Shown: in pieces, positions 6,669 to 20,493 of the stretch
Position numbering within the stretch: position 1 is the first letter of the stretch
Layout: the number at the start of each line of letters is the position of its first letter
Position numbers and translations under genes: made by a program
Origin: Ignicoccus pacificus DSM 13166
GTDB lineage: Archaea; Thermoproteota; Thermoprotei_A; Sulfolobales; Ignicoccaceae
DNA: 32,000 nt
Direction of reading: 5' to 3'
Assembly: GCA_025340205.1 (NCBI GenBank)
Contig: CP006868.1
Span: 270,001-302,000, forward strand
Notes under the pieces: generated by a model
Told to the model about the DNA's origin: nothing
The model's database searches: none
What the model saw: only the letters and a program-made list of their open reading frames with translations

Positions 6669-7769
6669 TTATATGGGAATGGGGACAAGCGTTCCAAAGC
6701 CCAATTCCCTTAGATCTCCTGCGCCCTCTCTATAGAGCTTGTGCCAGTCATCACAATTACCATAAAACAATCCCTTCCATATACCATGTCTGAACCCCCT
6801 CGGTCTGTTTTTCGCGAGACTCCAGCCTAAGCTGAAGGCATCAACTTCAACGCGATAAGGTGGAACTATAGATTTTAGGAAGTCTTCCTCTTTTGGAGTA
6901 AAGTGTTTTATTTCGTTTTTCAGTAGCTTCTCGATTTTTTCTCTTAATTGTGCAAATGAAGAGGAACGTACGTTTAGTGGTTCCTTGAAGAGTAATGGTG
7001 TGGCTATTAGTAGTAAACATTCGCCTCCATTTCTTCCATTCCAAAGGTGAGAGAGTTCTTCTTCTATCAAGTTCTTTTTAGAAAGCTCTAGTCTAGCTGG
7101 CAATCCTTCCCCGCCGAAACCTAGTATTGTTTTTTCTTCATGTCTTAAATCACCATATATATCCGCTACTATGGAACCCATTATTATTTTCTTTCCTTCT
7201 TGCACTGCGATATACCTTCTTTCTTGAATATAGATCATACCTTTGGAACTCTCAATTCCCGTTTGCTTTTTCGTTCTATGGAGAGCTATTCCGGTCAGTT
7301 CAGTTGCTCCTATTTGAGGTATTGGTCGTTTCATTACTTCAAACAAGTTCTTAGACTTTGATGGTATAAGAACCTCTCTTTTTAGTAGATCCTCAATTTT
7401 CTTTCCACTTCTTTCAAGCTCCTTTACTAGTTTACGTAGTCCCAGGATAGGAGTCCCATCAAAAGCTGTGAGCTCCTTGGCCTCACCCTCTTCAAAGATA
7501 GCGAATGCTCCGGTGAGCCTTTTCACGCCAAGCTTTTCCAAGCATTTTTTCACATCGCTTAGAATCTCGAAATTTTTATCGTCCAATTCTTTGCAAGAAG
7601 AATCTCTCTGATAGACGATTTGAGCTAGAGCTCCAGCTAAAGTCGTTGGGGGAGGAAGAGGGTAGCTTAACGAGTAGGTGACGCTTCCCCTTGTCTGAGG
7701 GCTGAAGTTTCCCGGCTTCCTAAAGCTGGAACTACCTAGTGGTCTAATTATTACTCCCATCTCGATCAC
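6669..7769 (-). CDS. cmr3: Type III-B RAMP subunit Cmr3 (Cas5-like)
   Basis: The N-terminus 'IIRPLGSSSFRKPGNF...SYPLPPPTTLAGALAQ' matches the Cmr3 pattern (l.fRd.rpF...s...P.P.T.aGA). The C-terminal glycine-rich 'GAGDLRELGFGTLVPI' is also typical. The start overlaps the cas10 stop. Confidence 0.75.
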   Translation of the reverse strand: MIEMGVIIRPLGSSSFRKPGNFSPQTRGSVTYSLSYPLPPPTTLAGALAQIVYQRDSSCKELDDKNFEILSDVKKCLEKLGVKRLTGAFAIFEEGEAKELTAFDGTPILGLRKLVKELERSGKKIEDLLKREVLIPSKSKNLFEVMKRPIPQIGATELTGIALHRTKKQTGIESSKGMIYIQERRYIAVQEGKKIIMGSIVADIYGDLRHEEKTILGFGGEGLPARLELSKKNLIEEELSHLWNGRNGGECLLLIATPLLFKEPLNVRSSSFAQLREKIEKLLKNEIKHFTPKEEDFLKSIVPPYRVEVDAFSLGWSLAKNRPRGFRHGIWKGLFYGNCDDWHKLYREGAGDLRELGFGTLVPIPI

Positions 7770-10700
7770 CTCAAAGTGTTACTCCATATCAAGAGGAAAC
7801 GGGCTAACTCTTTAGGCAGACAGACCATCTCAACCTTATCGCTGTTAGATGCATAGGCCTTACCATGTTCCTTCATCAATTTCTCCACTACTTCCTTTAA
7901 CCAGAGCTCCGTTTCACAGTTTCTCTTCCTCATGTTCTTTCGTACTACGTACTCAAAGAGTAAGGCTATGTTGGGATCGCACGTCCTACAATCAAATTCT
8001 CTTAAAGCTTCTGCAGCGTCGTAGAACGCTTGCCTCGATAGCACGTCTTTCACAAATATCAAGCCTAGACCTTTTTTCGTTATGTTTGCTAAGGGAAGTT
8101 CCAGTTTCTTTTTAGCGAACGTTGTATTGGGCAAGGTAGTAGAGTTATCTATATTTCTATAGGCGATAGCTATTCCATCTTTCCTTATGACCCATCCATC
8201 TGGAAAGACCTTCGTCGGTTTCTTGCCCTTCTCATCAGCTAGCCTTCTTGCATCCCTTAGTGCAAGTACTAGAGGCTCACGATAATGTTTCACAGCTATT
8301 CCGTACTTTCGTCCATATGCTATGAGAGCTGGTGCTAATGCTCCAAGAGGCAATTCCCTCGAATCTCCCTTCATCTTGATTTTTACCGTTATTTTCTTGA
8401 AACCGTCTTTTAGCTCGATCTTATTATCCTCTTCATTATCCTCGAAACTTGTTAATGATTCTGACTCGAAGCCCCAGTAAGCAGCTCTAGTGGTTTCCCA
8501 GATGTACAAGGGAGGACTATAAGCACCTTTTTCATTCAACTTTTTAACTGGAGCTAGAGCTAGTAGATCATCTCCCCCAGCATAGATCGTAGTACCTTCA
8601 TATTCATTTTCAATTAATGCAGTATCTATAACAGCGCCAACCATGGTAGAGTAAGAGATCTGCGCGAGATAGCTTGGAGTAACGACAATTGTCGGTATAC
8701 CTCTTCTCGCTCCTATCTCTTCCGGATTTAAGACATCTGAGAATCTAGTTACGTCCTTCATGGTATTTATAATTTCTTCTATTCTTTTTGCTTCTGAGCT
8801 GTTCTTAGATAACAAAGACTTTTTGAAGGATTCAAAGTACCTATTCTTATCATTTGGATCCTCGGTCAGCTTTCCAGTAAGTATTAAATTCATGTTGTCT
8901 CCATCGGCTCTAATGATCGCGTAGTATTTCCTTGCCTTTAATATTGCCTCCTTTATTTCTTGTAATATGTCACCTTTTACGATTATATAATTTCTGGTGA
9001 CTGGATCAAGTACTCTCACTATTTTAACGGTATCCTGTTTAAGAAACGTGTTTTCTAGAGAAACCGTTTGAATCATTTTTTCTATTAATTCATCAAGCTG
9101 ATAATCAGTCGAATTCTTCTTGCCATTAGCTTCTTCTATCTCTACTTTTATCGTATCGGTACTCTTCCCATTTCTTTTTCGCTCCCTCTTTACTAGTTCC
9201 TCGAGTTGAGTTGAGAGGGCTAAGTTCAAGAGGTCTACGCTTCTTCGCGTTTTAATTTTGAGTGCAGCATCAAGAAGAGACTCGAACAGACCAAGGTTCA
9301 AATACCATTCATATCCAAGTATTCTCTTTATAAGGCAATAGGGACAGAGAGCCTCACGCTCTCTTATAAGAACTATTCCTTTTTCTGAGTTTATCACGAA
9401 TTCTCCATTATTTCTTTTCAATACCTTTATTGGATCATCGCTTCTGTTCTTTATTATCGCCGGGAGTCCGCAGCGACACTCCACTCTAGCGACCTTTGGA
9501 TCGTTTCCGAGAAGATTCAGCCTCGATAAGTCCAACTTTACGGCGTCAAATGATTCCCTCCTGAGCTTGTTCGCCCATAACCAATGGAAGAAGAGTTTTT
9601 TCTTTAATTCATCTTTCTGATTACCTTTTTTTGATTTTTCTTCGCCTTCATTAATATTGTATTTCTCTAAGAGTTCATTAAGTTCTTTGTTATTCTCAAT
9701 ATGTTTCTTAAATATATCTTCATATTCTTTCCACGCGTCTTCAAGCTTGATCTCGACTATCGAAAGCGGTAGAGGTGGGACCTTTACGGTATTTCCGATC
9801 ATTTCCTCGATTTTCTCCTTTGTGAGCTCACAACTTACTCTATTTTCTTCACACGTATTGTAATAATCATGTAAGTTCTCTTTTACGAATTCAAATATTT
9901 TAGAGGCGAACTTTTCCCAGCAGCCCCTAAACTTTTCTCCAAAATACTCACTCCAAGAGGTTATGTCTTTCTCTAGCAATTCTTTGGCAATGTCAAGAGG
10001 AGGTAAGAGCAAAGTAGCAGTAGCGGGCATTACCGGATGTTCAGGGTTGAGAAGATAATTCGAGTGCGAACGGTGTTTAGATCTTGATTCGTTCGACTCT
10101 CTTCTTGGTGTTGATTCAGCAAGATCATCGTCATTATCGAGTAATAAACCCTTAAGGAACTTGTTATTTACCATGTGTAAATAGAAGGGGTTGAAGCGTG
10201 CCGTCGGAAGGAGCATTGTATCGGGTCCTATCTTCTCCACTACCTCCCTTATCGTGCACCACATAAGCGCAGATACTAACCAGCTGGAGGCCCAAAGATC
10301 CACTGGACCCCTCGAGTTGCTTATAAATTCTTGAACGTTTTCTATCTTTAATTTAATCATATATCCTTTCCATTTTCTGTTCCATATTACATTCACCATT
10401 TGTGCCGTAGCTGAGAGGTGATCGAATATGGTGTGATGAGGAACCCTCGTCTCTGCGACTGGAGGAACTCCAACTATTCCGTACCATAGGGGTTCAGCGA
10501 AAGCGTAAAGGACGTGGTATTTTTTCCTCAAACAATCTGTTGAATCTTCTTCATCACATTTGGTAGCACCTAGTAGCGACTTTAGCAAATTATAGAATTG
10601 ATACATTTTTTGAACTAAAGGATAAACTTCTTTATCATTTTCATGAAGAAAGTCGGGATTTGTGATATTGACCAAATGAGGGAAATTGAAAATATTTTCT

Positions 10701-11101
10701 CTTTTTCTCTTTGTAAGTAACCAACGATCAAGAGATGAGGCTATTTGATCGTAGCCCCATTTACTTTTACCACCTGTATACTTTTCTATTATCTCTATTA
10801 TCTCGTCTTCACTGAGTAATGATGCAAATAAATACTTTATTACTACAATAGCTTCTATTTCATGCATTCTTTTTCTGGAGTACTTCTTGTCATTACTCTT
10901 CTTTTTCCTTTCTTCATAGAACTTATATATCAGATTGTTTTTGTCCTCACAATTGTCTTCACAATTCTTGCTTACCCTTTTTGCCCATCTACCTTCACTT
11001 CTATTTATTATCCATGGCTTGTGAAACGGATCATGAAGATAGGCTACTATCTTTTTCTTAAAGAATTTAGTTTTATCAAGCTTGCTGCTCACTGTTATCA
11101 T
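7766..11101 (-). CDS. cas10: Cas10/Cmr2, type III large subunit (HD domain, Zn finger, two Palm/cyclase domains)
   Basis: 'AYLHDPFHKPW' (HD at 11030-11035) is the Cmr2-type N-terminal HD motif. The treble-clef cysteines 'CRCG...CPYCLIKR' are present. 'IIRADGDNMN' and 'IYAGGDDLLALAP' (GGDD at 8567-8578) are the Palm motifs. The protein is 1111 aa. Confidence 0.9.
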   Translation of the reverse strand: MITVSSKLDKTKFFKKKIVAYLHDPFHKPWIINRSEGRWAKRVSKNCEDNCEDKNNLIYKFYEERKKKSNDKKYSRKRMHEIEAIVVIKYLFASLLSEDEIIEIIEKYTGGKSKWGYDQIASSLDRWLLTKRKRENIFNFPHLVNITNPDFLHENDKEVYPLVQKMYQFYNLLKSLLGATKCDEEDSTDCLRKKYHVLYAFAEPLWYGIVGVPPVAETRVPHHTIFDHLSATAQMVNVIWNRKWKGYMIKLKIENVQEFISNSRGPVDLWASSWLVSALMWCTIREVVEKIGPDTMLLPTARFNPFYLHMVNNKFLKGLLLDNDDDLAESTPRRESNESRSKHRSHSNYLLNPEHPVMPATATLLLPPLDIAKELLEKDITSWSEYFGEKFRGCWEKFASKIFEFVKENLHDYYNTCEENRVSCELTKEKIEEMIGNTVKVPPLPLSIVEIKLEDAWKEYEDIFKKHIENNKELNELLEKYNINEGEEKSKKGNQKDELKKKLFFHWLWANKLRRESFDAVKLDLSRLNLLGNDPKVARVECRCGLPAIIKNRSDDPIKVLKRNNGEFVINSEKGIVLIREREALCPYCLIKRILGYEWYLNLGLFESLLDAALKIKTRRSVDLLNLALSTQLEELVKRERKRNGKSTDTIKVEIEEANGKKNSTDYQLDELIEKMIQTVSLENTFLKQDTVKIVRVLDPVTRNYIIVKGDILQEIKEAILKARKYYAIIRADGDNMNLILTGKLTEDPNDKNRYFESFKKSLLSKNSSEAKRIEEIINTMKDVTRFSDVLNPEEIGARRGIPTIVVTPSYLAQISYSTMVGAVIDTALIENEYEGTTIYAGGDDLLALAPVKKLNEKGAYSPPLYIWETTRAAYWGFESESLTSFEDNEEDNKIELKDGFKKITVKIKMKGDSRELPLGALAPALIAYGRKYGIAVKHYREPLVLALRDARRLADEKGKKPTKVFPDGWVIRKDGIAIAYRNIDNSTTLPNTTFAKKKLELPLANITKKGLGLIFVKDVLSRQAFYDAAEALREFDCRTCDPNIALLFEYVVRKNMRKRNCETELWLKEVVEKLMKEHGKAYASNSDKVEMVCLPKELARFLLIWSNTLR

Positions 11102-11666
11102 CCTCCTTTATGTAAGCTTCAACTAATTTCTTGAGTTCGATAGAGTATTCAATTACCATTTTTTCTAATATAGATCTTGAAGTTCCATCCCACATTAATA
11201 TTTCCTCTAACAAATCTAATAATCCACAAAAGTTAGAGGTAGTTCGAAATTCTCCCCTTCCTAACTTTCTTCCTATGTGTTCTATTGCTGAGACATAACA
11301 CGCTAACGCTATGCTGTAGCTGACCTTCTCGGTCTTTGATTCAAGATCATTTAGAGTAATGCTTTCCGCAACTGAAAGAGCATTATCTGGGTTTCTAAAA
11401 TCATTAATGATACTCTCGAAGGTCTTTGGATCCGATTTCGACATGTAAAATGTTAGGGTTCGGAGGAGCCCATCAGAGCTAGCCATAGATGGGAATGACC
11501 TCACTCTACTCCTAACTCCCTTCTTCATTGCTATCTTTGTTTCTTCCTTAATTTTCCCGTCCACTTTTTGTAAATCATCAAAGGTATTCTTTATGATTCC
11601 TGCATGCCTCACGGCAAGTAATATTAAATCGAGGTCGGAGGGTTCCGATGTCAAAGTCCTTTTCAC
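11076..11666 (-). CDS. cmr5: Type III small subunit Cmr5 (Cas11)
   Basis: 196-aa all-helical protein between cmr4 and cas10. 'VRSRVRSFPSMASSDGLLRTLTFYMSK' fits the Cmr5 pattern (lr..v..lP.mI..nGL..tlaFl.sK). The helical C-terminus 'IEYSIELKKLVEAY' also fits. Confidence 0.6.
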   Translation of the reverse strand: MKRTLTSEPSDLDLILLAVRHAGIIKNTFDDLQKVDGKIKEETKIAMKKGVRSRVRSFPSMASSDGLLRTLTFYMSKSDPKTFESIINDFRNPDNALSVAESITLNDLESKTEKVSYSIALACYVSAIEHIGRKLGRGEFRTTSNFCGLLDLLEEILMWDGTSRSILEKMVIEYSIELKKLVEAYIKEDDNSEQQA

Positions 11667-12712
11667 CTCAGCAGGAACTTAAGCATTCCCTTCCCTAGCG
11701 TCTCCTTTCCTCCTAATGCTAGATCGAACTCCACTGGGCCTCTTGTCTTGTTGTCTTTTGAGAGTAGGCGCTTGAGTACCTCTATCGGTTCTTCCTTCAC
11801 TAATGTCATTAGCTCCTCTTCCTCTGACACTTTTTTGTTATTGTTATCAGAAGAACTCTCACAATATTCGTTTTCAAATCCTCTTGTACCTATTAGGCCA
11901 GTGAATACCGTACCATGAGGTAGGTATTCTTCTTTCCAAACTCCTCCTCGTTGAACCGTCTTTTTCCTATAGTTTAATCTAATCCTTGTAACCCTAAACA
12001 AGGCCTTCTCTATAATATTTACTATGTCTGCATCCTCAAAGAGGTAAACTTTAGTGTGTTGGAGGAAAGGTATTAGATTAGAAATGTCCTCTTTTTTACT
12101 GCCAAGAACCCTAGCCATCCTCTCTTCGATTTCATCGTCTAATTCAACTGCTTCGAACTTCTCTAATTCTACAAATACTTTTTTCTTTTCCTTGTTTTTG
12201 ATGGAGTTTGGATCTATATTCAAATCTATACCATTAAGCTTAGCTCTAGAGAGAAGATAGGGACTAGTTGCATAAGCGAAAACATCATTTAAACTCGGAA
12301 AAGGAATGAATAGGGGATAGAGATCGCCTAGTATGAGCTTTGATGCACCCTTCTCCGTATCTTCGGGTTCATGGCCTAATAGACAGCAGATGAGGTTACA
12401 CGTATTAACATTCTCTTTTTTGTTTGATTGATTTTCACTTTTCTTAACTTCACACTTAACCCTTCCACCACTATCCAAACATCTAAACTTTCTTGCCAGT
12501 GATGACTTCAATGAACCTTTAAACGAAGACGCTGGAATAAAAGGTATTCCGAAGGGATCCCTTATTATTGGGAGATCTACGACTCCCCTGCTTCCTTCGG
12601 CTCCAACGTGAACGTGAGTCAACGCTATCGCAAGCAAGGGTGAGGTTTCCTTCAAGGAGTTTGACCCATCTATCCATTTGGACGGTAAGTTATAAAGAGT
12701 TCTTTGATTCAC
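11663..12712 (-). CDS. cmr4: Type III-B backbone RAMP Cmr4 (Cas7); the true start may lie about 25 codons downstream
   Basis: 'ALTHVHVGAEGSRGVVDLPIIRDPFGIPFIPASSFKGSLKS' includes the catalytic-Asp context and the P.IPgSSlKG motif. 'CNLICCLLGHE' and the C-terminal 'LGGKETLGKGMLKF' G-rich loop are also present. The annotated GTG start is only 14 nt from the divergent gene. Confidence 0.8.
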   Translation of the reverse strand: MNQRTLYNLPSKWIDGSNSLKETSPLLAIALTHVHVGAEGSRGVVDLPIIRDPFGIPFIPASSFKGSLKSSLARKFRCLDSGGRVKCEVKKSENQSNKKENVNTCNLICCLLGHEPEDTEKGASKLILGDLYPLFIPFPSLNDVFAYATSPYLLSRAKLNGIDLNIDPNSIKNKEKKKVFVELEKFEAVELDDEIEERMARVLGSKKEDISNLIPFLQHTKVYLFEDADIVNIIEKALFRVTRIRLNYRKKTVQRGGVWKEEYLPHGTVFTGLIGTRGFENEYCESSSDNNNKKVSEEEELMTLVKEEPIEVLKRLLSKDNKTRGPVEFDLALGGKETLGKGMLKFLLR

Positions 12713-12726
12713 TTACTTGATAGAAG

Positions 12727-13299
12727 TTGAGCGTTCTCCAGAGCCCTTTAGCGGTCGCTTACCTTCATGGCAAGATATTGTGTAAGATCATAGAAGATAA
12801 TACAGATGAGAACTTTCAGAAGGCCCTTAGATCAATACTCCGCTCCCTTCCTTCGGAGCTTAGCGATTCTGGCTACATTGGTGTTCTATCCATGAAGCTT
12901 TACAAGACATGGGAACAATCAAGCGTTCTCGCAGATCTATACCTTGATCTCTTGCCAAGTGTTGACTTGGAAAGGAATAAGAAAGAAGATATCGAAAAGA
13001 GTATTGAGAATGTAAAAACAAAGATAATAAACCTTATACAAAATACGGCAGATAAAAGAACTCTCGCCGAGAGCCTCGTTACATCAATGCTAATCGTGGC
13101 CTTAGCTACGCTTAATCCATCTTGCAAGAAGTGTCTTGATATACAGCTCAGCGTCGCTCTAAGGAAGCTTTTGAGCGGGAAGTGCTGTAAAATACCGGAG
13201 AGAGCAATTCTTCTGTACTCGGAGGAGATGAAGAAGTTTGTAGACGGAATAGTCCAAGTGGAGGAGGGAAAGGACAATGAGTCTCGAGATCGACTTTAA
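12727..13299 (+). CDS. Helical protein, candidate second Cas11/Cmr5-like small subunit
   Basis: 190 aa with a TTG start. 'ALRSILRSLPSELSDSGYIGVLSM' parallels 'VRSRVRSFPSMASSDGLLRTLTF' of the neighbouring Cmr5. The C-terminus 'ILLYSEEMKKFVDGIV' parallels 'VIEYSIELKKLVEAYI'. Confidence 0.4.
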   Translation: MSVLQSPLAVAYLHGKILCKIIEDNTDENFQKALRSILRSLPSELSDSGYIGVLSMKLYKTWEQSSVLADLYLDLLPSVDLERNKKEDIEKSIENVKTKIINLIQNTADKRTLAESLVTSMLIVALATLNPSCKKCLDIQLSVALRKLLSGKCCKIPERAILLYSEEMKKFVDGIVQVEEGKDNESRDRL

Positions 13300-14830
13300 T
13301 GAGTATCTCAGAAATGATCAATTAGAAGATCCCCCTCTGGAATTCTTAGGCACCTTCGTAAATATAACTCCCTACATGGGCGGTAGCTTTGACAACGGCA
13401 AAACGTTCAGAGGCAACCGCTTCATAGGTCATCCTACAGCGCAAGCAATAAAGGCGAGAGCTCGTTACGCCTCCTTACTCGCGCTAACTTCTTTCATTAC
13501 TAGTCCTCAAAGTTACAAGGATGCATTCAAAATAAAAGTAATTATCGAAGGAGATAAAGAAGAAATTCCCTTACTCTGTTTGATCTATGGTTGTGTAGAC
13601 TCTCATCAATTCGGTTCCCCCTTTCACTTGATAGTTAAGAACGTAAGGGGAGCCAAGAAGTGGCGCAACGCCGGAAACAGGAAAGCGAAAGATAGGTACA
13701 ATGCTATTCTAAGAAGAAACGATAAGAGAATGGAGTTAGCTCCTGCAGAAACCGGTACTGTAAGTTTTGAGTTACACGTCTCCGTTGATGAGGATAGATT
13801 GGTCTTATTAGAACTCACTCCTAGAGAGATCGAGATACTTAAGGAAATATTCGAATCAAGCGTTCTCGTAGCGCTATCTCTCTTCGGTATAGGAAAGGCA
13901 GCTAGCCGAGGATTCGGACGCTTCTGGAAAAAAGACGAAGAGCTAACTTTTGAGAAACTGATAGAAAACGTGGAAAAGTTGTTGGAACATTGGAAAGAGC
14001 TATTAAGCAAATTAAAGAAGTCAGATAAGCTAAAAATATATAAAGATGAGATCGAACTAAAGGATGATTACTCAAAGGATATTATTATTGGAAAGGTTCC
14101 CCACTTGGGATTCATTCCAAGGATAAAGACCGAGTTTTCAAACGAACTCTTCATGAGATCTAGAGCTCCAATTGATACTAAGATAGAGATGATTGCTAGG
14201 GCAGTGTTGAAGTCCAATTGGAGAAGAAGGAGTTCCGGAGGCGGAGCTCGCTTCCACACGTGGCCTCTAGGTCTCCCAAGGTCCTCAAAGATCAAATGTA
14301 CATGCTATGGATATGATGGGAATTATCAAAGATACGGATACTTCGTAACAAGCATGATCAGTCCCACGAGAGAAATCGCTTGTGAACACTCTAGACCTTG
14401 CGGAGGCTCAAACATCCCAACAACGGAAGATAGGCACCAATCCATGGTTTACTTCATTCCATTGAAGGAAGGAATAGTAATAGTTCCTTTCTTCACTGAT
14501 GCAATGAAAGATGAGCTGATATTTACGAGAACTGCTCGGAAACTTTACCATGTTGGAGGAATCTTCGTTGAAGGTAAGCCTTGCTGTAATAGAAGGTTCA
14601 TAAGCGTTTCGAGGGTGCTTCTTGGAAGAGACCCAATCAAGTTCCCAGAGGCTCGCGAAGGATGTGATTGTGGAAGCGAAAGACTGGGAATAGCAAGGCC
14701 GCCGAGAAGGTCCCCGAGGTTAATGAATGAGGTTACAAAAGGCAGTCGAGGTAGAGATGATCGATTATATAGGGAAGCGTTGGCAGCATCACTGGAATGG
14801 ACAATCTTCGTACTAAAAAGAAGATTCTAA
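13277..14830 (+). CDS. cmr1: Cmr1-like RAMP (Cas7-family) with a compositionally distinct Cys/Arg/Gly-rich C-terminal extension
   Basis: 'FVNITPYMGGSFDNGKTFRGNR...PTAQAIKARARYASL' fits the Cmr1 pattern (TPlf.gG...R.psiKG.lRfw.Ra). The G-rich loop is 'LFGIGKAASRGFGRFW'. From about aa 310 the composition changes (RRRSSGGGARFHTWPLGLPRSS, several CxC/CC pairs). Confidence 0.55.
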   Translation: MSLEIDFNEYLRNDQLEDPPLEFLGTFVNITPYMGGSFDNGKTFRGNRFIGHPTAQAIKARARYASLLALTSFITSPQSYKDAFKIKVIIEGDKEEIPLLCLIYGCVDSHQFGSPFHLIVKNVRGAKKWRNAGNRKAKDRYNAILRRNDKRMELAPAETGTVSFELHVSVDEDRLVLLELTPREIEILKEIFESSVLVALSLFGIGKAASRGFGRFWKKDEELTFEKLIENVEKLLEHWKELLSKLKKSDKLKIYKDEIELKDDYSKDIIIGKVPHLGFIPRIKTEFSNELFMRSRAPIDTKIEMIARAVLKSNWRRRSSGGGARFHTWPLGLPRSSKIKCTCYGYDGNYQRYGYFVTSMISPTREIACEHSRPCGGSNIPTTEDRHQSMVYFIPLKEGIVIVPFFTDAMKDELIFTRTARKLYHVGGIFVEGKPCCNRRFISVSRVLLGRDPIKFPEAREGCDCGSERLGIARPPRRSPRLMNEVTKGSRGRDDRLYREALAASLEWTIFVLKRRF

Positions 14831-14894
14831 GCGAAAGGTCCTCGAAGGAAAAAGATAAAATAAGGGAAACGAAAGTTCTTTTGGATGGAAACAT

Positions 14895-15911
14895 ATGGCA
14901 TATGCCATCCCCTTTAATATAAATGAAATACCTCAAAGGTACGAAATATTTGAAAAATTAAACTTATTCTATAATGAGAGTGCTACTTTTCTCTCAAGGG
15001 TGTTGAATAGAAATGAAAACGATCTTCTAACGTTGTTCCATGAGAATGGTAGCTTCCTCTTCGAAACTTATCTAAGAAAGATAATGTTCATTGAATACAA
15101 AGGAAATATAATGACCTTTGAGGGCCCTCCTGGAAGCGGAAAGTCCACAGCACTCTTGTCACTCACAATGGGAGGATCGGACTTTTACCTTGATGGTAAT
15201 CGAAACGAAATTAACGAAATTTTTAGACAAAGACCCATATTTCCTTTGGCTATTGTTGATGTTCAAGTAGTTCCAGAAGAAGATAGCTTATTCTCTTGGA
15301 TCGAGGGATATATGAATAATTATTTATCGATATTATTTGACCATTTTGAGAGAAGTTCATGTCCTACAGAAGCTATGGAAAGGGTAGAAATTACAAAAAA
15401 GACGTTTAATGAAGTGGCAAGATCACTAGGATTCTTAATGCTCGATAAGGATCAATTAGCACAAACGATGGCAACCGATCTCAGCGAATATATTGACAAC
15501 TTAAAGAAGATATCAAAAAGTGGGATGGAATTTAGAGAAAATTACTTAAAATTTGCTAGAGAGCTGCGATTACTACTTAAAGAACTACGGGCTACAGAAC
15601 ATTATCCCTTACTCCTCTTCGCTTTCGATAATGTAGAAAGCAATCTTAAGACGTTTAGAGAAATTATGACACTCTGTAAGCTAATCTCAGTAGATCCCTT
15701 GAGCTTGTGTATCTTAGCCATACGTGATTACAGACCTCTTTTGCCAGCACTCCTTAGTTGGGATGCATGGGAAAATTTACAATACCTAAACGATATCACT
15801 GCGGAACGTGATGAGATAGCGTATGAGCTATTATATAGAATTACAATACTCGATGCAATAAACACCATTGAGAAGCTCTTTCTACCTCAATATATTATAA
15901 AGTTTAGGTAA
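14895..15911 (+). CDS. P-loop NTPase of unassigned family, embedded in the cmr operon
   Basis: Walker A is 'FEGPPGSGKSTALLSL' (15123-15149). The Walker-B candidate is 'YPLLLFAFDNVE'. It has the same strand and AT-rich composition as the cas genes. Confidence 0.6.
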   Translation: MAYAIPFNINEIPQRYEIFEKLNLFYNESATFLSRVLNRNENDLLTLFHENGSFLFETYLRKIMFIEYKGNIMTFEGPPGSGKSTALLSLTMGGSDFYLDGNRNEINEIFRQRPIFPLAIVDVQVVPEEDSLFSWIEGYMNNYLSILFDHFERSSCPTEAMERVEITKKTFNEVARSLGFLMLDKDQLAQTMATDLSEYIDNLKKISKSGMEFRENYLKFARELRLLLKELRATEHYPLLLFAFDNVESNLKTFREIMTLCKLISVDPLSLCILAIRDYRPLLPALLSWDAWENLQYLNDITAERDEIAYELLYRITILDAINTIEKLFLPQYIIKFR

Positions 15912-15953
15912 CATTGTCAGTTAACTTATACTTCATAATGGAGGTGTGAATCC

Positions 15954-17375
15954 ATGAGATTAACTACTCCGAATGAAATACTTCAACAAGATGAATATGG
16001 TGTACTCTACGTTAAAGAAGTATGGGAAGATTTACAAGAAATATTTAATAGAGATAGAAGGGGCAGAAGGAGAATATATCCCATAGATAGAATTACAAAT
16101 CTCTTAGAGAGGAATGTGCCAGAGTTTAGGGAAAGGTACGAAAACTTGTTTTACGAAACGTTCGAAGGCCTCGGGCTCAATGAAACTTTAAGTAGAGAGC
16201 TCTATGAATTGTTGTTCTCTCAAGAAAATCATGATCAAAGAAGTTCCCTAACAGGCGTTATTAAGATTTTCCTTGAATTAGTGTTTCGTGCTCCGTTTTC
16301 AGAAATCTTTATCTCCCTTCGTTGCAAGGAGAAACTCTCGATTATCTATGATACTTTCCAAGATATGGAGGAGAACCGAGAGGAGTATATTAAATCGTCG
16401 ATAATTCACCTTGCTAGACAGTGTTTCCCTTACTCGTTCTTTGCAAACGATACGATTTACGTTTTCCACCAAAGTGATTTAAATGAGTTATACAATATGT
16501 ACTTTAACGATACTGTTCGAAGAAATACTGATGCAATTAATTTAGACACTTTGTTCAGCTTTAGTACCGTTAGTACCGATGGTGAGGGAGAAGAACAAGC
16601 AGAAGTCTACACGGAAATTAGGAGGTTGTTAGTATCTCCTTATCAATTGGTTGTACTGTTGGAAGAGTATATAAGAAACGAGCCTTATTCTAGGGTAATA
16701 CATGAAATTCTTAATTACACTAGTAGACCTAGGTTCGGAGGAGGAATAGGAAAATACTCTATAATCGAACACGTAATCTCAGAGCCCGGAAGAAATCTAT
16801 ATATCGAGCCATTCCTACATCCCCATCCCAAAAGAGCTGTAGAAGTTCTCTTTTATCACGCAGTGTTCTATTCATGGCTAGAGAAACTACTTCAAGCATG
16901 GTTTGAGATAATTAGGTTTAATGTTACTAACACAAATGAATCAAGAATGATAAATAACTTTATCCTTATCATATCACTAATTTACATTTATCTGTTATTG
17001 ATTCATGTTAAAAGAAGAATAGGGAACAGAGATGTTATCGTACCTACCGTTAAAGACCACCTCATAGTCCTCTTTACCCTGATTACTTTATTACACAGAG
17101 CTCCATACAATGAAATAAGAGATATCTTGCTTGAAAACAATATATTAGCTATTGTTGGAGGTGAAAGAGAAAATATCCTTGGAGATCAATTTGGAGGAAC
17201 TACATATAGAAGATACATCCTCTTCCTCTTGAACATAATATACAATGACACAGTAAGGATTGTTGATATTCGCGATCAGTTAACCGATCCAGAAGTTCTC
17301 CTCACTATAGGCTACGTTAGACGTAAACTCCTCGATATTCAGAGGTTCTACAACCCACCAAGAGAGGAGGGATGA
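15954..17375 (+). CDS. Uncharacterised 473-aa protein with one or two hydrophobic segments, embedded in the cmr operon
   Basis: A long ORF with GGAGGTG 6 nt upstream of the ATG. Its stop overlaps the start of the deaminase gene (ATGA). Hydrophobic stretches are 'MINNFILIISLIYIYLLLIHV' and 'LIVLFTLITLL'. I recognise no catalytic motif. Confidence 0.5.
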   Translation: MRLTTPNEILQQDEYGVLYVKEVWEDLQEIFNRDRRGRRRIYPIDRITNLLERNVPEFRERYENLFYETFEGLGLNETLSRELYELLFSQENHDQRSSLTGVIKIFLELVFRAPFSEIFISLRCKEKLSIIYDTFQDMEENREEYIKSSIIHLARQCFPYSFFANDTIYVFHQSDLNELYNMYFNDTVRRNTDAINLDTLFSFSTVSTDGEGEEQAEVYTEIRRLLVSPYQLVVLLEEYIRNEPYSRVIHEILNYTSRPRFGGGIGKYSIIEHVISEPGRNLYIEPFLHPHPKRAVEVLFYHAVFYSWLEKLLQAWFEIIRFNVTNTNESRMINNFILIISLIYIYLLLIHVKRRIGNRDVIVPTVKDHLIVLFTLITLLHRAPYNEIRDILLENNILAIVGGERENILGDQFGGTTYRRYILFLLNIIYNDTVRIVDIRDQLTDPEVLLTIGYVRRKLLDIQRFYNPPREEG

Positions 17376-19615
17376 GGATGAATGGTGTCTTGAGACTGCC
17401 ACATTTCTACAACAATTTGAGAGACTCCTTGAAAGCAATTCTCATAGTCCCTATTAATCTCACTAAACATGAACATTCTGAGGAAATTATTAATGAGATA
17501 AATAAATGTTATCAAGGTCTAATAAGAGGGAGGGGACGACGGTTAGAGACTTGCAGAAAAGTAGTTCAACTAAGTGGCATGAAGAACGTCGTCGGAGAGA
17601 CGAAACTCAAGAAGTTCTTAGCCGATCGAATGTTAAATGATCCCCCTCCGTTCTCTCCCCTATACCCTCTTAGGATTGATTTGATCAACTCCATTCTAGA
17701 TTATATAAATACAGAAGTAAAGAAAGCAGTTGGAAGAGAACTTTACAATCTTAATCTATATGATGCTGATTATTCAACCTTGTTTAAGGCACTTACTGAT
17801 GGAATAATCCGGAATATCCGCGGTGTTATAAACGTCAATGATGTTACCGAGCTTATCATACTCAGTAGGAGAATCCCCATAGAACACCTAAGTTGGCAAC
17901 TTTCTCCAGGATTTCTACGAGAAGTGACAGATGAACATGTTCATTTAGGAGCATCCTTAACTCCTCTGTCAGCTTTCTTCCACGTGAGTTACTTCATCTA
18001 TTCCCTTCCTCGCAACATCGTGAAGAAGACTAGTAAATACTCGAGCTTTTTGAGTGAGAACTTCTTCAAACTTCTGGAAGTGCTCCCGATAGCGCGCATA
18101 GCTCTTGAAGCTTGTTTAGAAAGAAATGTACCTTCTATCTTTAGTGATAATGAAGAAGTTAATAAGAAAGCGATTAGAGAATACTTAGAGACGCTCTTGA
18201 GCAAAAACGTAGTAGAAGAAGAAAGACTATTGGTACGTGATGTTCTTTTGAGAAATAAATGTTCGATTGAATTTCTAATATACGAATTGATATCATCATC
18301 CCTAGTCTCCTCAATAGTTCAGAACGACCTCTATACCGGTCTGAGCAGCTTCAGCATGTTCTACAGTCGTGGCAGCACAGCAATAAAAGCGATCAGGAAA
18401 GCAGTTAAGAACAGTATCGCGAAAAACGCCAAGAGACGTTACGTTAAGATAATAGAACACTTCCACGGGACGATGGATGAGGTTATCGGAACTAGATTAA
18501 CCGTCCGCTTTAAGATATCTGCAGAGGATTTTTACAAGAACTTTAAGATAATAAATAACTTCAAGAGGTTAAGTTCCCAGAAATACTTTCTAAGTTATGT
18601 AAAAAGACCTTTTAAAAATGAACGGAAGAGAGCACTGCGTTCTCTTCTTGACGACATGTATAAGGAAGCGTACTACTTCAAGCTAGTTCTTGAAAATTAT
18701 GAGAACGCTAAGAAGATAGTATTAGGTCCTGATGTAGCCGGAGTTGAGGAACACGTGCCTAACTGGATTGGGGTTAGGTACGTGAGCATGACTACCGAAT
18801 TTATGACCGAGAAAGGGGTTCCCTCTATCATAAGCTATCATGCTGGGGAAAGTTACTTCAACGTCTTCAACGGCCTTCGTTCAATGTATGAGGTAATAGA
18901 ATTTGGAGGGTTAAGGAGCGATGATAGAATAGGTCACGCCTTAGTTCTCGGAGACACAGAAGTCATGAACAGTTACATAGAAAATGCTTGGGATGCCCTC
19001 TTCGATCTCGTTTTCATTCGCTTGTTTCTAGAAAGGGAAATGCCACACCTAGTGAATCAGCTAGAAGGTACCTTTAGACAAGTGATCTATAAAGTCAGAA
19101 GAGAAGGGATGGAAATACAGCCAGAACTACTAATGGAACTTTGGAAGGATCTGTTTGATGAGGAAAGGTTAAGGTATCTCCTCTTCCATTCCAGCTATCC
19201 TGCACTTTCCAACGGTTACTACTATAGTGTGGTAAATAATTTCAAGATGAGAGAGGTTGAAGAAGAGATATTGGAAGTATTCAAGCACTATTTCAATAGC
19301 TGGCATAAGACTCAATCAGTTGATCTTATTAAAGTTCTGCAGAGATCGTTCTCAGAAGATCAAATAAGGGAGATAGCTACAAACATCAGAGAGTTTCTGA
19401 TGGAGTTAGTGAAAAGAAAAGGTATATTCATCGAAAGTTGCCCTACATCAAACATCATAATAAGGCACTTGAGTTCACATCCGCTTGGTCTATTTAAAGA
19501 AAAAGAATTGAAGGTGGGAATGGGAACAGACGACCCGTTGATTCTAAATACAGAGCCTTTTATAGAGCAAGGCATATTTAACAAACTTCTTGAAGAAGTA
19601 GACATGACAAGGTGA
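17372..19615 (+). CDS. Adenosine/AMP-deaminase-fold metallohydrolase with an N-terminal ~185-aa domain of unknown type; candidate CRISPR-linked nucleotide deaminase (Cad1/RdrB-like)
   Basis: The full deaminase signature is present in the canonical order: 'EHVHLGAS' (H189/H191, nt 17936-17944), 'SYHAGESY' (H490/E493, nt 18839-), 'DRIGHALVL' (H522), 'ESCPTSNI' (690-694) and 'GMGTDDPL' (D720/D721, nt 19529-19534). Confidence 0.8.
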   Translation: MRMNGVLRLPHFYNNLRDSLKAILIVPINLTKHEHSEEIINEINKCYQGLIRGRGRRLETCRKVVQLSGMKNVVGETKLKKFLADRMLNDPPPFSPLYPLRIDLINSILDYINTEVKKAVGRELYNLNLYDADYSTLFKALTDGIIRNIRGVINVNDVTELIILSRRIPIEHLSWQLSPGFLREVTDEHVHLGASLTPLSAFFHVSYFIYSLPRNIVKKTSKYSSFLSENFFKLLEVLPIARIALEACLERNVPSIFSDNEEVNKKAIREYLETLLSKNVVEEERLLVRDVLLRNKCSIEFLIYELISSSLVSSIVQNDLYTGLSSFSMFYSRGSTAIKAIRKAVKNSIAKNAKRRYVKIIEHFHGTMDEVIGTRLTVRFKISAEDFYKNFKIINNFKRLSSQKYFLSYVKRPFKNERKRALRSLLDDMYKEAYYFKLVLENYENAKKIVLGPDVAGVEEHVPNWIGVRYVSMTTEFMTEKGVPSIISYHAGESYFNVFNGLRSMYEVIEFGGLRSDDRIGHALVLGDTEVMNSYIENAWDALFDLVFIRLFLEREMPHLVNQLEGTFRQVIYKVRREGMEIQPELLMELWKDLFDEERLRYLLFHSSYPALSNGYYYSVVNNFKMREVEEEILEVFKHYFNSWHKTQSVDLIKVLQRSFSEDQIREIATNIREFLMELVKRKGIFIESCPTSNIIIRHLSSHPLGLFKEKELKVGMGTDDPLILNTEPFIEQGIFNKLLEEVDMTR

Positions 19616-20493
19616 GAGTCGAAATGAACGGTAAACGGCCGGATCTCATAGCGTTCGAGGAATTTGTGAAGACCATCGTTGACGCTTATGAGAACCCTGA
19701 GGGAGCTGCTTCGATGATAAAGAACCTCAAACGAAGTATAATATTGAAGCTGGAGAGTGAGACCCTAGACTACGTACCTAAGATATTCGAGCTCATAAGG
19801 AGGCTAAACGAGATGAAGAAAGAAGCGTTGAAAAGAAACGGATATTGGGTAGGATATGTTCAAGCGAAATTAGTCTCTCCAGGTCTTGTAGGCTCTAGTG
19901 AGGGCATCTTCAAAACTGTGTTCGAAGTTGGACTAACCCTTGACAAAGTGTTGGGCGTCCCCTTCTACCCCTCTTCGTCGGTAAAGGGGGTGGTCAGATC
20001 TAGGATTAAAAATATGCTAGAAAAAGAAGATAAAAATGTAGAGGAAGTCGTACAAGAGCTTTTCGGAGATATGGAAAGCGAAGGAAACGTGATTTTCATG
20101 GATGCTTACCCGATTGGCTGTATAGAGGAGCAATGTTCCTTATTCTCAGGAGCGGTGATTACTCCTCACTACTATAAAGGAGGCCAAGTAGTAGATAATG
20201 AACTTGGAGTTAAACCCGTTCCTATTCCACACCTTGTTGTCTCTCCAGGTTTGGTATTTGAGTTTATAATAGGAGTTAGGCGTGATGGAGGATATACGAA
20301 CACTATAAAGATGCTAGGAAATGGAAGCATAAGAGCTCATGAAATACCTCAAAAAGTTCTAATTAAGATCATGAGTTTATTAGTCGAAGAATTACAGAAG
20401 GGAGCCTTCGGTAGGGCTAGTAAGGGTTTCAACGTATTTGAGCCCGATAAAGGGTTAATCCCCAGTCAAGTGAGGGCATTAGGGATTCTATAG
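19612..20493 (+). CDS. cmr6: Type III-B RAMP subunit Cmr6 (Cas7-family)
   Basis: 'KLVSPGLVGSSEG...GLTLDKVLGVPFYPSSSVKGVVRS', 'VITPHYYKGG' and the G-rich 'GAFGRASKGFNVFE' match the Cmr6 pattern. The GTG start overlaps the deaminase stop (GTGA); an alternative ATG is at 19624. Confidence 0.75.
   Translation: MRVEMNGKRPDLIAFEEFVKTIVDAYENPEGAASMIKNLKRSIILKLESETLDYVPKIFELIRRLNEMKKEALKRNGYWVGYVQAKLVSPGLVGSSEGIFKTVFEVGLTLDKVLGVPFYPSSSVKGVVRSRIKNMLEKEDKNVEEVVQELFGDMESEGNVIFMDAYPIGCIEEQCSLFSGAVITPHYYKGGQVVDNELGVKPVPIPHLVVSPGLVFEFIIGVRRDGGYTNTIKMLGNGSIRAHEIPQKVLIKIMSLLVEELQKGAFGRASKGFNVFEPDKGLIPSQVRALGIL

What the first reader, a model, noticed from the sequence alone, without database searches (positions are those of the whole stretch)
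14895..17375. P-loop NTPase plus 473-aa partner: possibly a split large ATPase (RdrA-like?) or a new Cmr accessory pair
Seen in sequence: the 338-aa protein has Walker A and a plausible Walker B but little else. The next gene starts 42 nt downstream, behind a strong GGAGGTG, and encodes 473 aa with hydrophobic segments and no NTPase motif. Together they total about 810 aa.

Inference: the pair could be an ATPase core and its C-terminal or effector-interaction region encoded as two polypeptides, or by one gene split by a mutation. That would be comparable in size to the large ATPases that partner with deaminases in RADAR. Alternatively, the second protein may be membrane-associated and localise the module.
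Basis: inference. Interest (0 to 1): 0.6.

Follow-up and report, generated by a model that had tools for sequence, protein, structure and literature searches.

The report
Split RADAR ATPase inside cmr operon
The 338-aa protein is the ATPase core of an RdrA-type (RADAR antiviral system) enzyme, and the 473-aa protein is most likely its detached helical half; together with the RdrB-type adenosine deaminase next door, they form a very divergent archaeal RADAR module built into a type III-B CRISPR (cmr) operon.

Summary
Two intact ORFs (338 aa and 473 aa) lie 42 nt apart, and GGAGGTG sits 7 nt before the second ATG.

The 338-aa protein is an RdrA-type AAA+/KAP ATPase core.
- It has both RdrA-specific helical insertions and ends at strand beta5.
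- It therefore lacks the part of RdrA that carries the sensor-2 arginine and the C-terminal helical lobe.

Its only relatives among 1.84 billion proteins are mostly single 785-883-aa proteins whose first ~340 aa align with it. The closest (876 aa, 37% identity) also sits directly after cmr1.

The two ORFs share one frame, separated by two TAA codons.

The 473-aa protein is all-helical and has no detectable homologue. It is of the size that fused relatives carry beyond the ATPase core. Its identity as the RdrA C-terminal lobe is therefore an inference (about 0.6-0.65).

The next gene is RdrB-like, with conserved catalytic residues and the three RdrB insertions.

Decayed copies sit after cmr1 in two other Ignicoccus genomes.

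Verdict: a new variant of a known kind.

The parts
14895..15911 (+). RdrA-type AAA+/KAP ATPase core (338 aa). It has Walker A K83, Walker B D245 (DN rather than DD) and a sensor-1-like D278. A four-helix 'crown' insertion covers about residues 132-232, and a second helical insertion covers 282-328. The protein ends at strand beta5 (334-336).
15912..15953 (+). 42-nt spacer in the same frame as both ORFs. It holds a second in-frame TAA (15936-15938) and a Shine-Dalgarno-like GGAGGTG (15940-15946) 7 nt before the ATG.
   Evidence: Sequence read directly; frame arithmetic 1059 = 353 x 3.
15954..17375 (+). 473-aa all-alpha orphan protein. It is inferred to be the detached lid and C-terminal helical lobe of the RdrA-like ATPase, and possibly supplies the sensor-2 arginine in trans. 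It has one strongly hydrophobic helix at 332-352.
   Evidence: No homologue found. About 20 helices in a low-confidence AF2 model. Its size and the position of its hydrophobic helix match the C-terminal parts of the fused relatives. Same frame as the ATPase gene.
17372..19615 (+). RdrB-type adenosine deaminase (747 aa). Its start overlaps or abuts the stop of the 473-aa gene.
   Evidence: NCBIfam RdrB 6.8e-17, PADLOC RdrB 5e-16, PDB RdrB 8fnv 3.8e-5. Catalytic residues and the three RdrB insertions align with annotated RdrB.
13277..14830 (+). cmr1-like gene immediately upstream. This adjacency to the ATPase gene is conserved in other lineages.
   Evidence: PADLOC Cmr1 5e-12. cmr1 is followed by the ATPase in I. 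islandicus and in metagenome contig L037.
19612..20493 (+). cmr6 gene. Its listed start overlaps the deaminase stop, so the cassette lies inside the cmr transcription unit.
   Evidence: PADLOC Cmr6 2e-33, NCBIfam Cmr6 1.6e-25.

Best explanation
The two genes encode one RdrA-type ATPase in two pieces, as part of a highly divergent archaeal RADAR module (RdrA plus the RdrB adenosine deaminase) that is built into a type III-B cmr operon of an Ignicoccus genome.

Shown:
- The 338-aa protein is the AAA+ alpha/beta core. It carries the RdrA 'crown' insertion, which in E. coli RADAR makes nearly all contacts with RdrB.
- It stops right after strand beta5, so it has no lid, no sensor-2 arginine and no C-terminal lobe.

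Inferred:
- The 473-aa helical protein supplies those missing parts in trans. The ATPase ring would then be complete, and probably hydrolytically competent, only when both polypeptides assemble.
- By analogy with RADAR, the ring docks through its crown on the RdrB-like deaminase and licenses conversion of ATP/dATP to ITP/dITP during infection.
- The split arose by fission of a fused ancestor. Bacterial RdrA and most archaeal relatives are fused, including the closest one, which is also cmr-embedded. The two ORFs are still in one frame, and a strong ribosome-binding site serves the second.
- The module acts together with the Cmr complex. This rests only on the cassette being translationally packed between cmr1 and cmr6.
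For: Fold:
- The AF2 model shows a four-helix insert between beta2 and beta3 and helices between beta4 and beta5. These are the two insertions that Duncan-Lowey et al. 2023 (PMC9994260) describe as distinctive for RdrA.

Sequence:
- The family profile aligns collinearly with annotated Aliivibrio RdrA over Walker A, the IDPxL motif, Walker B and sensor 1 (E 4.5e-9).
- The fused archaeal relative in genome G014 matches it at 7.5e-9 by BLASTP. P0007, a 359-aa fragment that matches the start of that protein, hits PADLOC RdrA at 2e-7.

Fused forms:
- The HMMER search listed nine proteins, one of them the query itself. Five of the eight others are 785-883 aa, with the match in their first ~340 aa.
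- The closest relative, P0003 (876 aa, 37% identity), begins 83 nt after a cmr1 homologue on metagenome contig L037.

Position:
- E. coli RdrA sensor 2 is R377, beyond the residue 311 to which the 338-aa protein maps.
- The fused relatives carry about 455-535 aa past that boundary, and the partner is 473 aa.
- All fused relatives have one strongly hydrophobic helix 354-450 aa after the CKLxSxDP motif. In the concatenated pair it is at +409.
- The ORFs share a frame, with two TAA codons and GGAGGTG between them.

Partner and co-occurrence:
- The RdrB-like deaminase has aligned catalytic residues and all three RdrB insertions.
- The ATPase and deaminase homologues are found in the same few genomes of the class.
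Against: - No sequence or structural similarity links the 473-aa protein to the C-terminal part of any fused relative or of RdrA. Its AF2 model is unreliable (pLDDT 37). The C-terminal parts of the fused relatives are barely alignable even with each other, so this absence is weak evidence.
- The 338-aa protein itself hits no RdrA HMM.
- Walker B reads DN rather than the DD of E. coli RdrA.
- Being in the same frame has a one-in-three chance expectation.
- The copies in the other two Ignicoccus genomes are decayed, so loss of function in this lineage is conceivable.
- No CARF, SAVED or other known cyclic-oligoadenylate sensor was seen in the cassette, so coupling to Cmr is unproven.
Confidence: 0.62

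Rival explanations
1. The 338-aa protein is a truncated RdrA-type core, but the 473-aa protein is not the old C-terminal lobe. It would be an unrelated, lineage-specific partner that replaced the lobe, for example an adaptor to the Cmr complex or a membrane anchor.
For: The 473-aa protein has no detectable homologue anywhere, including the fused relatives. It has a very hydrophobic 19-21-residue helix followed by KRR (332-356), plus a second hydrophobic segment. Such helices are weaker in the three bacterial RdrA proteins compared.
Against: Its size and the position of its hydrophobic helix match those of the fused archaeal relatives. It is in the same frame as the core gene. The core ends exactly at a domain boundary where the missing parts must come from somewhere. 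RdrA C-terminal lobes are known to be hypervariable (PMC9994260).
Confidence: 0.2
2. The split is the first step of decay. The ATPase gene was inactivated by nonsense mutations, and the module is no longer functional, as in the sister genomes.
For: Ignicoccus islandicus keeps only a 209-aa ATPase piece and a 152-aa deaminase piece after cmr1. The genome of I. hospitalis size (G177) keeps a 92-aa deaminase remnant. G556 has a deletion that joins the ATPase N-terminus to the deaminase C-terminus. There are two in-frame stops here.
Against: Both ORFs are long and uninterrupted in AT-rich DNA (0 of 5000 shuffles stay open). A perfect GGAGGTG sits at the right distance from the second ATG. The break is at a clean domain boundary. 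The deaminase keeps all its catalytic residues. The genes are tightly packed with the essential cmr6.
Confidence: 0.1
3. The pair is a generic KAP/STAND-type NTPase with a helical sensor, unrelated to RADAR, and its position next to a deaminase is coincidental.
For: Pfam and ESM-Atlas label the core KAP/AAA_16/STAND-like. No RdrA HMM hits the 338-aa protein directly.
Against: Annotated RdrA itself scores as KAP_NTPase. RdrA is the best structural match by a wide margin and shares both family-specific insertions. The ATPase and RdrB-like deaminase homologues co-occur in the same genomes, and in G556 one ORF joins pieces of both.
Confidence: 0.05

Closest known systems
RADAR RdrA (AAA+/KAP ATPase; E. 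coli and S. suis structures 8FNT, 8HR8, 8FNU; Duncan-Lowey et al. 2023, PMC9994260)
   Same: - It has the same ATPase fold, with both RdrA-specific insertions (crown, and helices between beta4 and beta5).
- Walker A, Walker B Asp and the sensor-1 Asp lie at nearly the same residue numbers.
- The gene lies upstream of an RdrB-type deaminase.
- The total length of the pair (811 aa) is within RdrA's range.
   Different: - It is encoded as two polypeptides, split right after beta5.
- Walker B is DN, not DD.
- Sequence identity is about 12-15% in structural alignments, too low for the RdrA HMMs.
- The C-terminal half is not recognisably similar.
- The host is a hyperthermophilic archaeon.
- The genes sit inside a cmr operon rather than forming a free-standing two-gene system.
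RADAR RdrB (adenosine deaminase that converts ATP to ITP)
   Same: The neighbouring 747-aa protein aligns at HxH, HxxE, the final catalytic His and DD. It has the N-terminal extension and the two internal insertions typical of RdrB.
   Different: It is about 100 aa shorter. It scores 61 bits against a curated cut-off of 800 bits for NCBIfam RdrB. Its oligomeric state is unknown.
Cad1/CAAD (CARF-fused adenosine deaminase of type III CRISPR-Cas)
   Same: It is an adenosine deaminase encoded with type III CRISPR genes. The expected chemistry (ATP to ITP) and the logic of arresting growth on infection are the same.
   Different: No CARF domain was detected. The PADLOC CARF_ADA matches cover only the deaminase part and are weaker than the RdrB matches. 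Here the partner is an ATPase rather than a fused cyclic-oligoadenylate sensor.
Fused archaeal relatives (P0003 876 aa, P0004 844 aa, P0005 785 aa, P0006 838 aa, P0009 883 aa, G014 at least 781 aa)
   Same: The N-terminal ~340 aa are homologous (20-37% identity). P0003 also follows cmr1. G014 probably precedes an RdrB-like deaminase.
   Different: They are single polypeptides. G014 is not in a CRISPR context: its upstream genes are AcnX and SHMT.

Membership tests
RADAR RdrA | P-loop AAA+/KAP core with Walker A GxxGxGK[ST] | tested here: met
   GPPGSGKS at 77-84. K83 corresponds to E. coli K82.
RADAR RdrA | Walker B acidic pair (E. coli D221, D222) | tested here: inconclusive
   D245 is present, but the next residue is N246 (FAFDNVE). 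The two closest relatives also read DN[VI]E, while the more distant ones read DD.
RADAR RdrA | Sensor-1 Asp after beta4 (E. coli D253) | tested here: met
   D278 follows beta4 (270-276). The Walker B to sensor-1 spacing is 33 residues against 32 in E. coli. In the profile alignment the family's conserved 'RD' falls on the 'GD' of Aliivibrio RdrA.
RADAR RdrA | Insertion 1: helical bundle ('crown') in place of helix alpha2, between beta2 and beta3 | tested here: met
   The AF2 model has helices 132-153, 158-181, 185-192 and 196-232 between strands 115-122 and 239-245. They lie within the RdrA-aligned range.
RADAR RdrA | Insertion 2: helices between beta4 and beta5 | tested here: met
   Helices 282-301 and 307-328 lie between strands 270-276 and 334-336. 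The model shows two helices, whereas three are described for E. coli RdrA.
RADAR RdrA | Sensor-2 arginine (E. coli R377) and a large C-terminal alpha-helical lobe on the same polypeptide | tested here: not met
   The 338-aa protein maps to RdrA 25-311 and ends there. The missing parts may lie in the separate 473-aa protein, but homology could not be shown.
RADAR RdrA | RdrA is the best structural match | tested here: met
RADAR RdrA | Match to curated RdrA HMMs (PADLOC PDLC02216/02217) | tested here: not met
   The 338-aa and 473-aa proteins give no RdrA hit at E <= 0.1. P0007, a fragment matching the start of the G014 fused protein, hits PDLC02217 at 2.1e-7.
RADAR RdrA | Encoded next to rdrB | tested here: met
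   The RdrB-like deaminase gene follows at 17372.
RADAR RdrA | Heptameric ring that docks on an RdrB dodecamer, and anti-virus activity | not testable with these tools
   This needs multimer modelling or experiment.
RADAR RdrB (neighbouring gene) | Adenosine-deaminase catalytic residues plus three RdrB-type insertions | tested here: met
   H189/H191, H490/E493, H522 and D720/D721 align with Aliivibrio RdrB 164/166, 519/522, 551 and 796/797. The N-terminal extension and both internal insertions are present.
RADAR RdrB (neighbouring gene) | Score above the NCBIfam equivalog cut-off | tested here: not met
   61.3 bits against a cut-off of 800.
Type III CRISPR ancillary effector (cOA-dependent) | CARF, SAVED or other known cyclic-oligoadenylate sensor domain | tested here: inconclusive
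   Pfam, NCBIfam and PADLOC found none in the three proteins. The N-terminal 188 aa of the deaminase and the whole 473-aa protein remain unassigned.
Type III CRISPR ancillary effector (cOA-dependent) | Conserved placement within or next to type III cas operons | tested here: met
   The cassette lies between cmr1 and cmr6 here. It follows cmr1 in I. islandicus (decayed) and on metagenome contig L037 (fused form). In G177 the remnant lies next to a weak Cmr1-like ORF.

The most novel reading that the evidence does not exclude
This would be a type III CRISPR effector arm that does not use CARF. The Cmr complex, through Cas10 products or direct contact, would activate a two-piece RdrA ring. The detached 473-aa lobe would be the regulated or Cmr-facing subunit, and the ring would switch on an RdrB-type deaminase that converts ATP to ITP. 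RADAR would then act as a hard-wired output of RNA-guided sensing rather than as an autonomous innate system.
Probability: 0.3. Interest if true: 0.8.

Novelty: new variant of a known kind. Interest (0 to 1): 0.6.

Why it matters
What activates RdrA in RADAR is still unclear. Three points make this locus useful.

- **A defined sensor nearby.** A RADAR module is conserved inside cmr operons, in three divergent lineages after cmr1. This places it next to an RNA-guided Cmr/Cas10 sensor, so a signalling link can be tested directly.
- **A parallel with Cad1.** Cad1 is the CARF-fused deaminase of type III systems. The parallel suggests that type III CRISPR recruited ATP-to-ITP conversion more than once.
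- **A natural domain dissection.** The break comes right after beta5, before the sensor-2 arginine. It therefore separates the ATPase core from the C-terminal lobe, whose role is unknown.

The module also shows that current RADAR models (PADLOC, NCBIfam) miss very divergent archaeal members.

Tried and rejected
**Homologues of the 473-aa protein**
- K-mer searches of 5.8 billion proteins, at near and longer lengths, found only the protein itself.
- A six-frame search of 300 genomes of the phylum found nothing credible.
- BLASTP against the fused relatives and their C-terminal halves gave nothing significant.
- An HMM built from the C-terminal halves scored the 473-aa protein at -0.5 bits, no better than shuffles.
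- A global MAFFT alignment with the fused forms smeared it over the whole length and was discarded.
- BLASTP against three bacterial RdrA proteins gave nothing.
- Single-sequence AF2 gave pLDDT 37, and the fold search had no hit with E <= 0.001.
- The ESM Atlas gave only weak helical-repeat look-alikes.

**A possible sensor-2 motif**
- 'LRCKEK' at R123 resembles 'PRCLEK' of P0003.
- A motif HMM did not support it: 200 of 2000 shuffles scored as well. It is kept only as a lead.

**Hydrophobic-helix landmark**
- It holds within the archaeal family.
- It is weak and variable in bacterial RdrA.

**Genomic context of relatives**
- Two scans of genome contigs found nothing.
- One metagenome scan gave a single 1089-bp contig.
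- Three viral scans found nothing.

**Short-form relatives**
- P0007 (359 aa), first taken for a split form, matches the N-terminus of the G014 fused protein and one source names it 'partial', so it is a contig-end fragment.
- Only P0008/P0012/P0013 (351-357 aa, on large contigs) remain as possible short forms.

**Literature**
- No paper in the held library links RdrA or RdrB to cmr operons.
Full report
**1. Observation**

The window carries a type III-B CRISPR locus.
- On the minus strand lie cmr3 (6669-7769), cas10/cmr2 (7766-11101), cmr5 (11076-11666) and cmr4 (11663-12712).
- On the plus strand lie a cmr5-like gene (12727-13299), a cmr1-like gene (13277-14830), the 338-aa ORF (14895-15911), the 473-aa ORF (15954-17375), a 747-aa deaminase (17372-19615) and cmr6 (19612-20493).

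- Walker A is GPPGSGKS and Walker B is LLLFAFD.
- The gap is 42 nt, and GGAGGTG lies 7 nt before the second ATG.
- The second protein has no NTPase motif but has hydrophobic segments.
- The long second frame is not chance: 0 of 5000 shuffles of its DNA stay open.

One detail was missed. Both ORFs are in the same frame, separated by two TAA codons (15909 and 15936). A single base error therefore cannot explain the split.

**2. The 338-aa protein**

The family libraries gave only weak P-loop hits, and the k-mer protein search found only the protein itself. An exhaustive HMMER search of 1.84 billion representatives listed nine proteins, one of them the query itself.
- Five of the eight others are 785-883 aa: P0003, P0004, P0005, P0006 and P0009. 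In each, the match covers the first ~340 aa.
- The rest are short: P0007, P0008 and P0010.
- P0007 matches the N-terminus of the long protein of genome G014 and one source names it 'partial', so it is a contig-end fragment.
- P0010 is the Ignicoccus islandicus remnant.
- Only P0008/P0012/P0013 (351-357 aa, on contigs of 0.47-0.76 Mb) may be true short forms.

With this 11-sequence alignment, AlphaFold2 gave a usable model (pLDDT 77, pTM 0.79).
- In Foldseek against the PDB the top 19 ranks are all RdrA chains from E. coli RADAR (E 5e-7 to 6e-5). An S. suis RdrA follows at rank 21 (9e-4), just after BrxC at rank 20 (8e-4).

The model has the two insertions that Duncan-Lowey et al. (PMC9994260) describe as distinguishing RdrA from other AAA+ clades.
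- One is a four-helix bundle between beta2 and beta3, the 'crown' that contacts RdrB.
- The other is a set of helices between beta4 and beta5.

Residue numbering nearly coincides with E. coli RdrA: K83 against K82, D245 against D221, and D278 against D253.

At the sequence level there is further support.
- The family profile aligns collinearly with an annotated RdrA from Aliivibrio plasmid pVSAL840, across Walker A, IDPxL, Walker B and sensor 1 (E 4.5e-9 for that comparison).
- The G014 fused form matches it by BLASTP at 7.5e-9. The P0007 fragment of that protein hits PADLOC RdrA at 2e-7.
- Annotated RdrA itself scores as Pfam KAP_NTPase. This explains the KAP labels from the ESM Atlas.

**3. 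Where the protein ends**

The model ends at strand beta5 (334-336), which maps to RdrA residue ~311. E. coli RdrA has its sensor-2 arginine at R377, followed by a large alpha-helical C-terminal lobe. The 338-aa protein therefore lacks an element described as positioned to catalyse hydrolysis, and it lacks the whole second layer of the RdrA ring.

**4. The 473-aa protein**

It is an orphan.
- It has no homologue in the k-mer database at near or longer lengths.
- It has none in 300 genomes of the phylum.
- It has no family hit and no PDB sequence hit.
- BLASTP and an HMM built from the C-terminal halves of the fused relatives give nothing.

Those C-terminal halves are barely alignable with each other. 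RdrA C-terminal lobes are reported as structurally conserved 'despite high sequence variability'. The negative results are therefore weak.

The single-sequence AF2 model is unreliable (pLDDT 37). It predicts about 20 helices and almost no strand, and its fold search is uninformative.

The following points favour its being the detached C-terminal part:
- It immediately follows a core that stops at a domain boundary.
- Its size fits: the fused relatives carry about 455-535 aa past that boundary.
- It is in the same reading frame as the core.
- It is all-alpha in composition.
- All six fused relatives in which the CKLxSxDP motif could be found have one strongly hydrophobic helix 354-450 aa after it. 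The concatenated pair has its own at +409.

A candidate sensor-2 motif (LRCKEK at R123, compared with PRCLEK in P0003) failed a shuffle test and is only a lead. I put the split-RdrA reading for this protein at about 0.6-0.65.

**5. The neighbouring deaminase**

It matches RdrB models: NCBIfam 6.8e-17, PADLOC 5e-16, and PDB 8fnv at 3.8e-5. Aligned with three plasmid RdrB proteins, every catalytic residue lines up, and the N-terminal extension and both internal insertions of RdrB are present. The three genes thus form a RADAR-like cassette. It is far below the curated cut-offs (61 bits against 800), so standard annotation would miss it.

**6. Distribution and context**

The genome belongs to the genus Ignicoccus. 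A same-genus genome, G118, has the contig length recorded for I. islandicus DSM 13165, and G177 has a contig of 1,297,538 bp, which I recall as the size of I. hospitalis.

In 351 genomes of the class, strong ATPase matches and deaminase matches fall in the same few genomes.
- **G014.** A fused ATPase of at least 781 aa runs off the end of one contig. A 734-aa RdrB-like gene starts 37 nt from the end of another. The two are probably adjacent, in a non-CRISPR context: the upstream genes are AcnX and SHMT.
- **G380 and G381.** These are the same genus as G014, and both genes lie on short contigs.
- **I. islandicus.** The order is csx1, cmr1, a 209-aa ATPase remnant, a 152-aa deaminase remnant, cmr4, cmr5, cmr6, cas10.
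- **G177 (I. hospitalis size).** A 92-aa deaminase remnant lies next to an ORF with a weak Cmr1 match (PADLOC 2.5e-5).
- **G556.** One 229-aa ORF joins the ATPase N-terminus to the deaminase C-terminus. This deletion scar proves that the two genes were adjacent.

A 1089-bp JGI metagenome contig (L037) gives the most useful context. It encodes the end of a cmr1 homologue (41% identical to the window's cmr1). After 83 nt comes the start of a protein 98.8% identical to P0003, the 876-aa fused form that is the closest relative of the 338-aa protein.

The placement of the RdrA-like gene after cmr1 is thus shared by three lineages. Their Cmr proteins are only 27-41% identical, and their ATPases 24-37%. 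This argues for an old, maintained association rather than a recent chance insertion. It also argues that the split in this genome is derived.

**7. Mechanism**

- **Shown:** the fold and motifs of the core, its truncation at beta5, the existence of fused relatives, the RdrB character of the neighbour, and the operon packing.
- **Inferred:** the two polypeptides assemble into an RdrA-like ring. The second would supply the lid, sensor 2 and lower layer. The ring would dock by its crown on the deaminase, which converts ATP/dATP to ITP/dITP as in RADAR.
- **Speculative:** activation comes from the Cmr complex. No CARF or SAVED domain was found in the cassette. A Csx1 homologue exists elsewhere in the genome, so the cell is not without a classical CARF effector.

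**8. Rivals**

| Reading | Confidence |
|---|---|
| The second protein is an unrelated replacement partner, possibly membrane-bound | 0.2 |
| The split marks incipient decay | 0.1 |
| The pair is a generic KAP/STAND NTPase unrelated to RADAR | 0.05 |

**9. Novelty**

I found no paper in the held library that links RdrA or RdrB with cmr operons or describes a split RdrA. Within this scan, an earlier follow-up on another genome (e1-3064035) described the decayed version and mentioned intact copies elsewhere. I reached the I. islandicus remnant independently before reading that note. I class this as a new variant of a known kind.

**10. Limits**

Noticed in passing
L036 (G118 = Ignicoccus islandicus, C1:280000-299900), 12699-14001: After cmr1 lies a decayed version of the same cassette: a 209-aa ATPase N-terminal piece (followed by fragments with stop codons) and a 152-aa deaminase C-terminal piece. 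The middle, including any 473-aa-type gene, is deleted. Here csx1 sits just upstream of cmr1.
   Followed up: partly
L010 (G556:C65:1-1623), minus strand 1538-852: A single 229-aa ORF joins an RdrA-like N-terminus (GGRGSGKST P-loop) directly to an RdrB-like C-terminus (ESCPSSN ... GSDDP). This looks like a deletion scar spanning most of both genes.
   Followed up: partly
L045 (G177, contig size of Ignicoccus hospitalis), about 8686-8862 minus strand: A 92-aa open frame is all that remains of the deaminase (47% identity over residues 677-734). It lies next to a 509-aa ORF with a weak Cmr1 match. The following ORFs give no Cas hits in PADLOC.
   Followed up: partly
L035 end (G014:C46) and L044 end (G014:C28): The fused ATPase gene runs off one contig end, and the RdrB-like gene starts 37 nt from another contig end. 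Both ends are AT-rich and of low complexity. The assembly probably broke between the two genes of a free-standing archaeal RADAR pair.
   Followed up: partly
G000:C1:1353499-1354977 (outside the window): A Csx1 homologue (38% identical to I. islandicus Csx1, ORF 575 aa) lies about 1.07 Mb from this locus. The genome therefore has a CARF effector, although the cmr island in the window has none.
   Followed up: no
window 14831-14894: The 64-nt gap between cmr1 and the ATPase gene contains an A/T-rich GATAAAATAA about 35 nt before the ATG. This could be an internal archaeal TATA box giving the cassette its own promoter.
   Followed up: no
window 17340-17380: GGAGGG lies just before two closely spaced ATG codons (17372 and 17378) at the deaminase start. 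The true start may be the second ATG, which would abut rather than overlap the stop of the 473-aa gene.
   Followed up: no
L052 (Rhizobium leguminosarum plasmid pRLN3), 676-8695: A RADAR-like pair (993-aa and 844-aa proteins, both annotated as hypothetical) lies about 0.9 kb upstream of an adenylosuccinate synthetase gene. That enzyme uses IMP, so it could bear on purine recovery after ITP formation.
   Followed up: no
window 12727-13299 and 11076-11666: Two Cmr5-like small-subunit genes are encoded divergently at the junction of the two cmr operons. The first-stage reader had already noted this.
   Followed up: no
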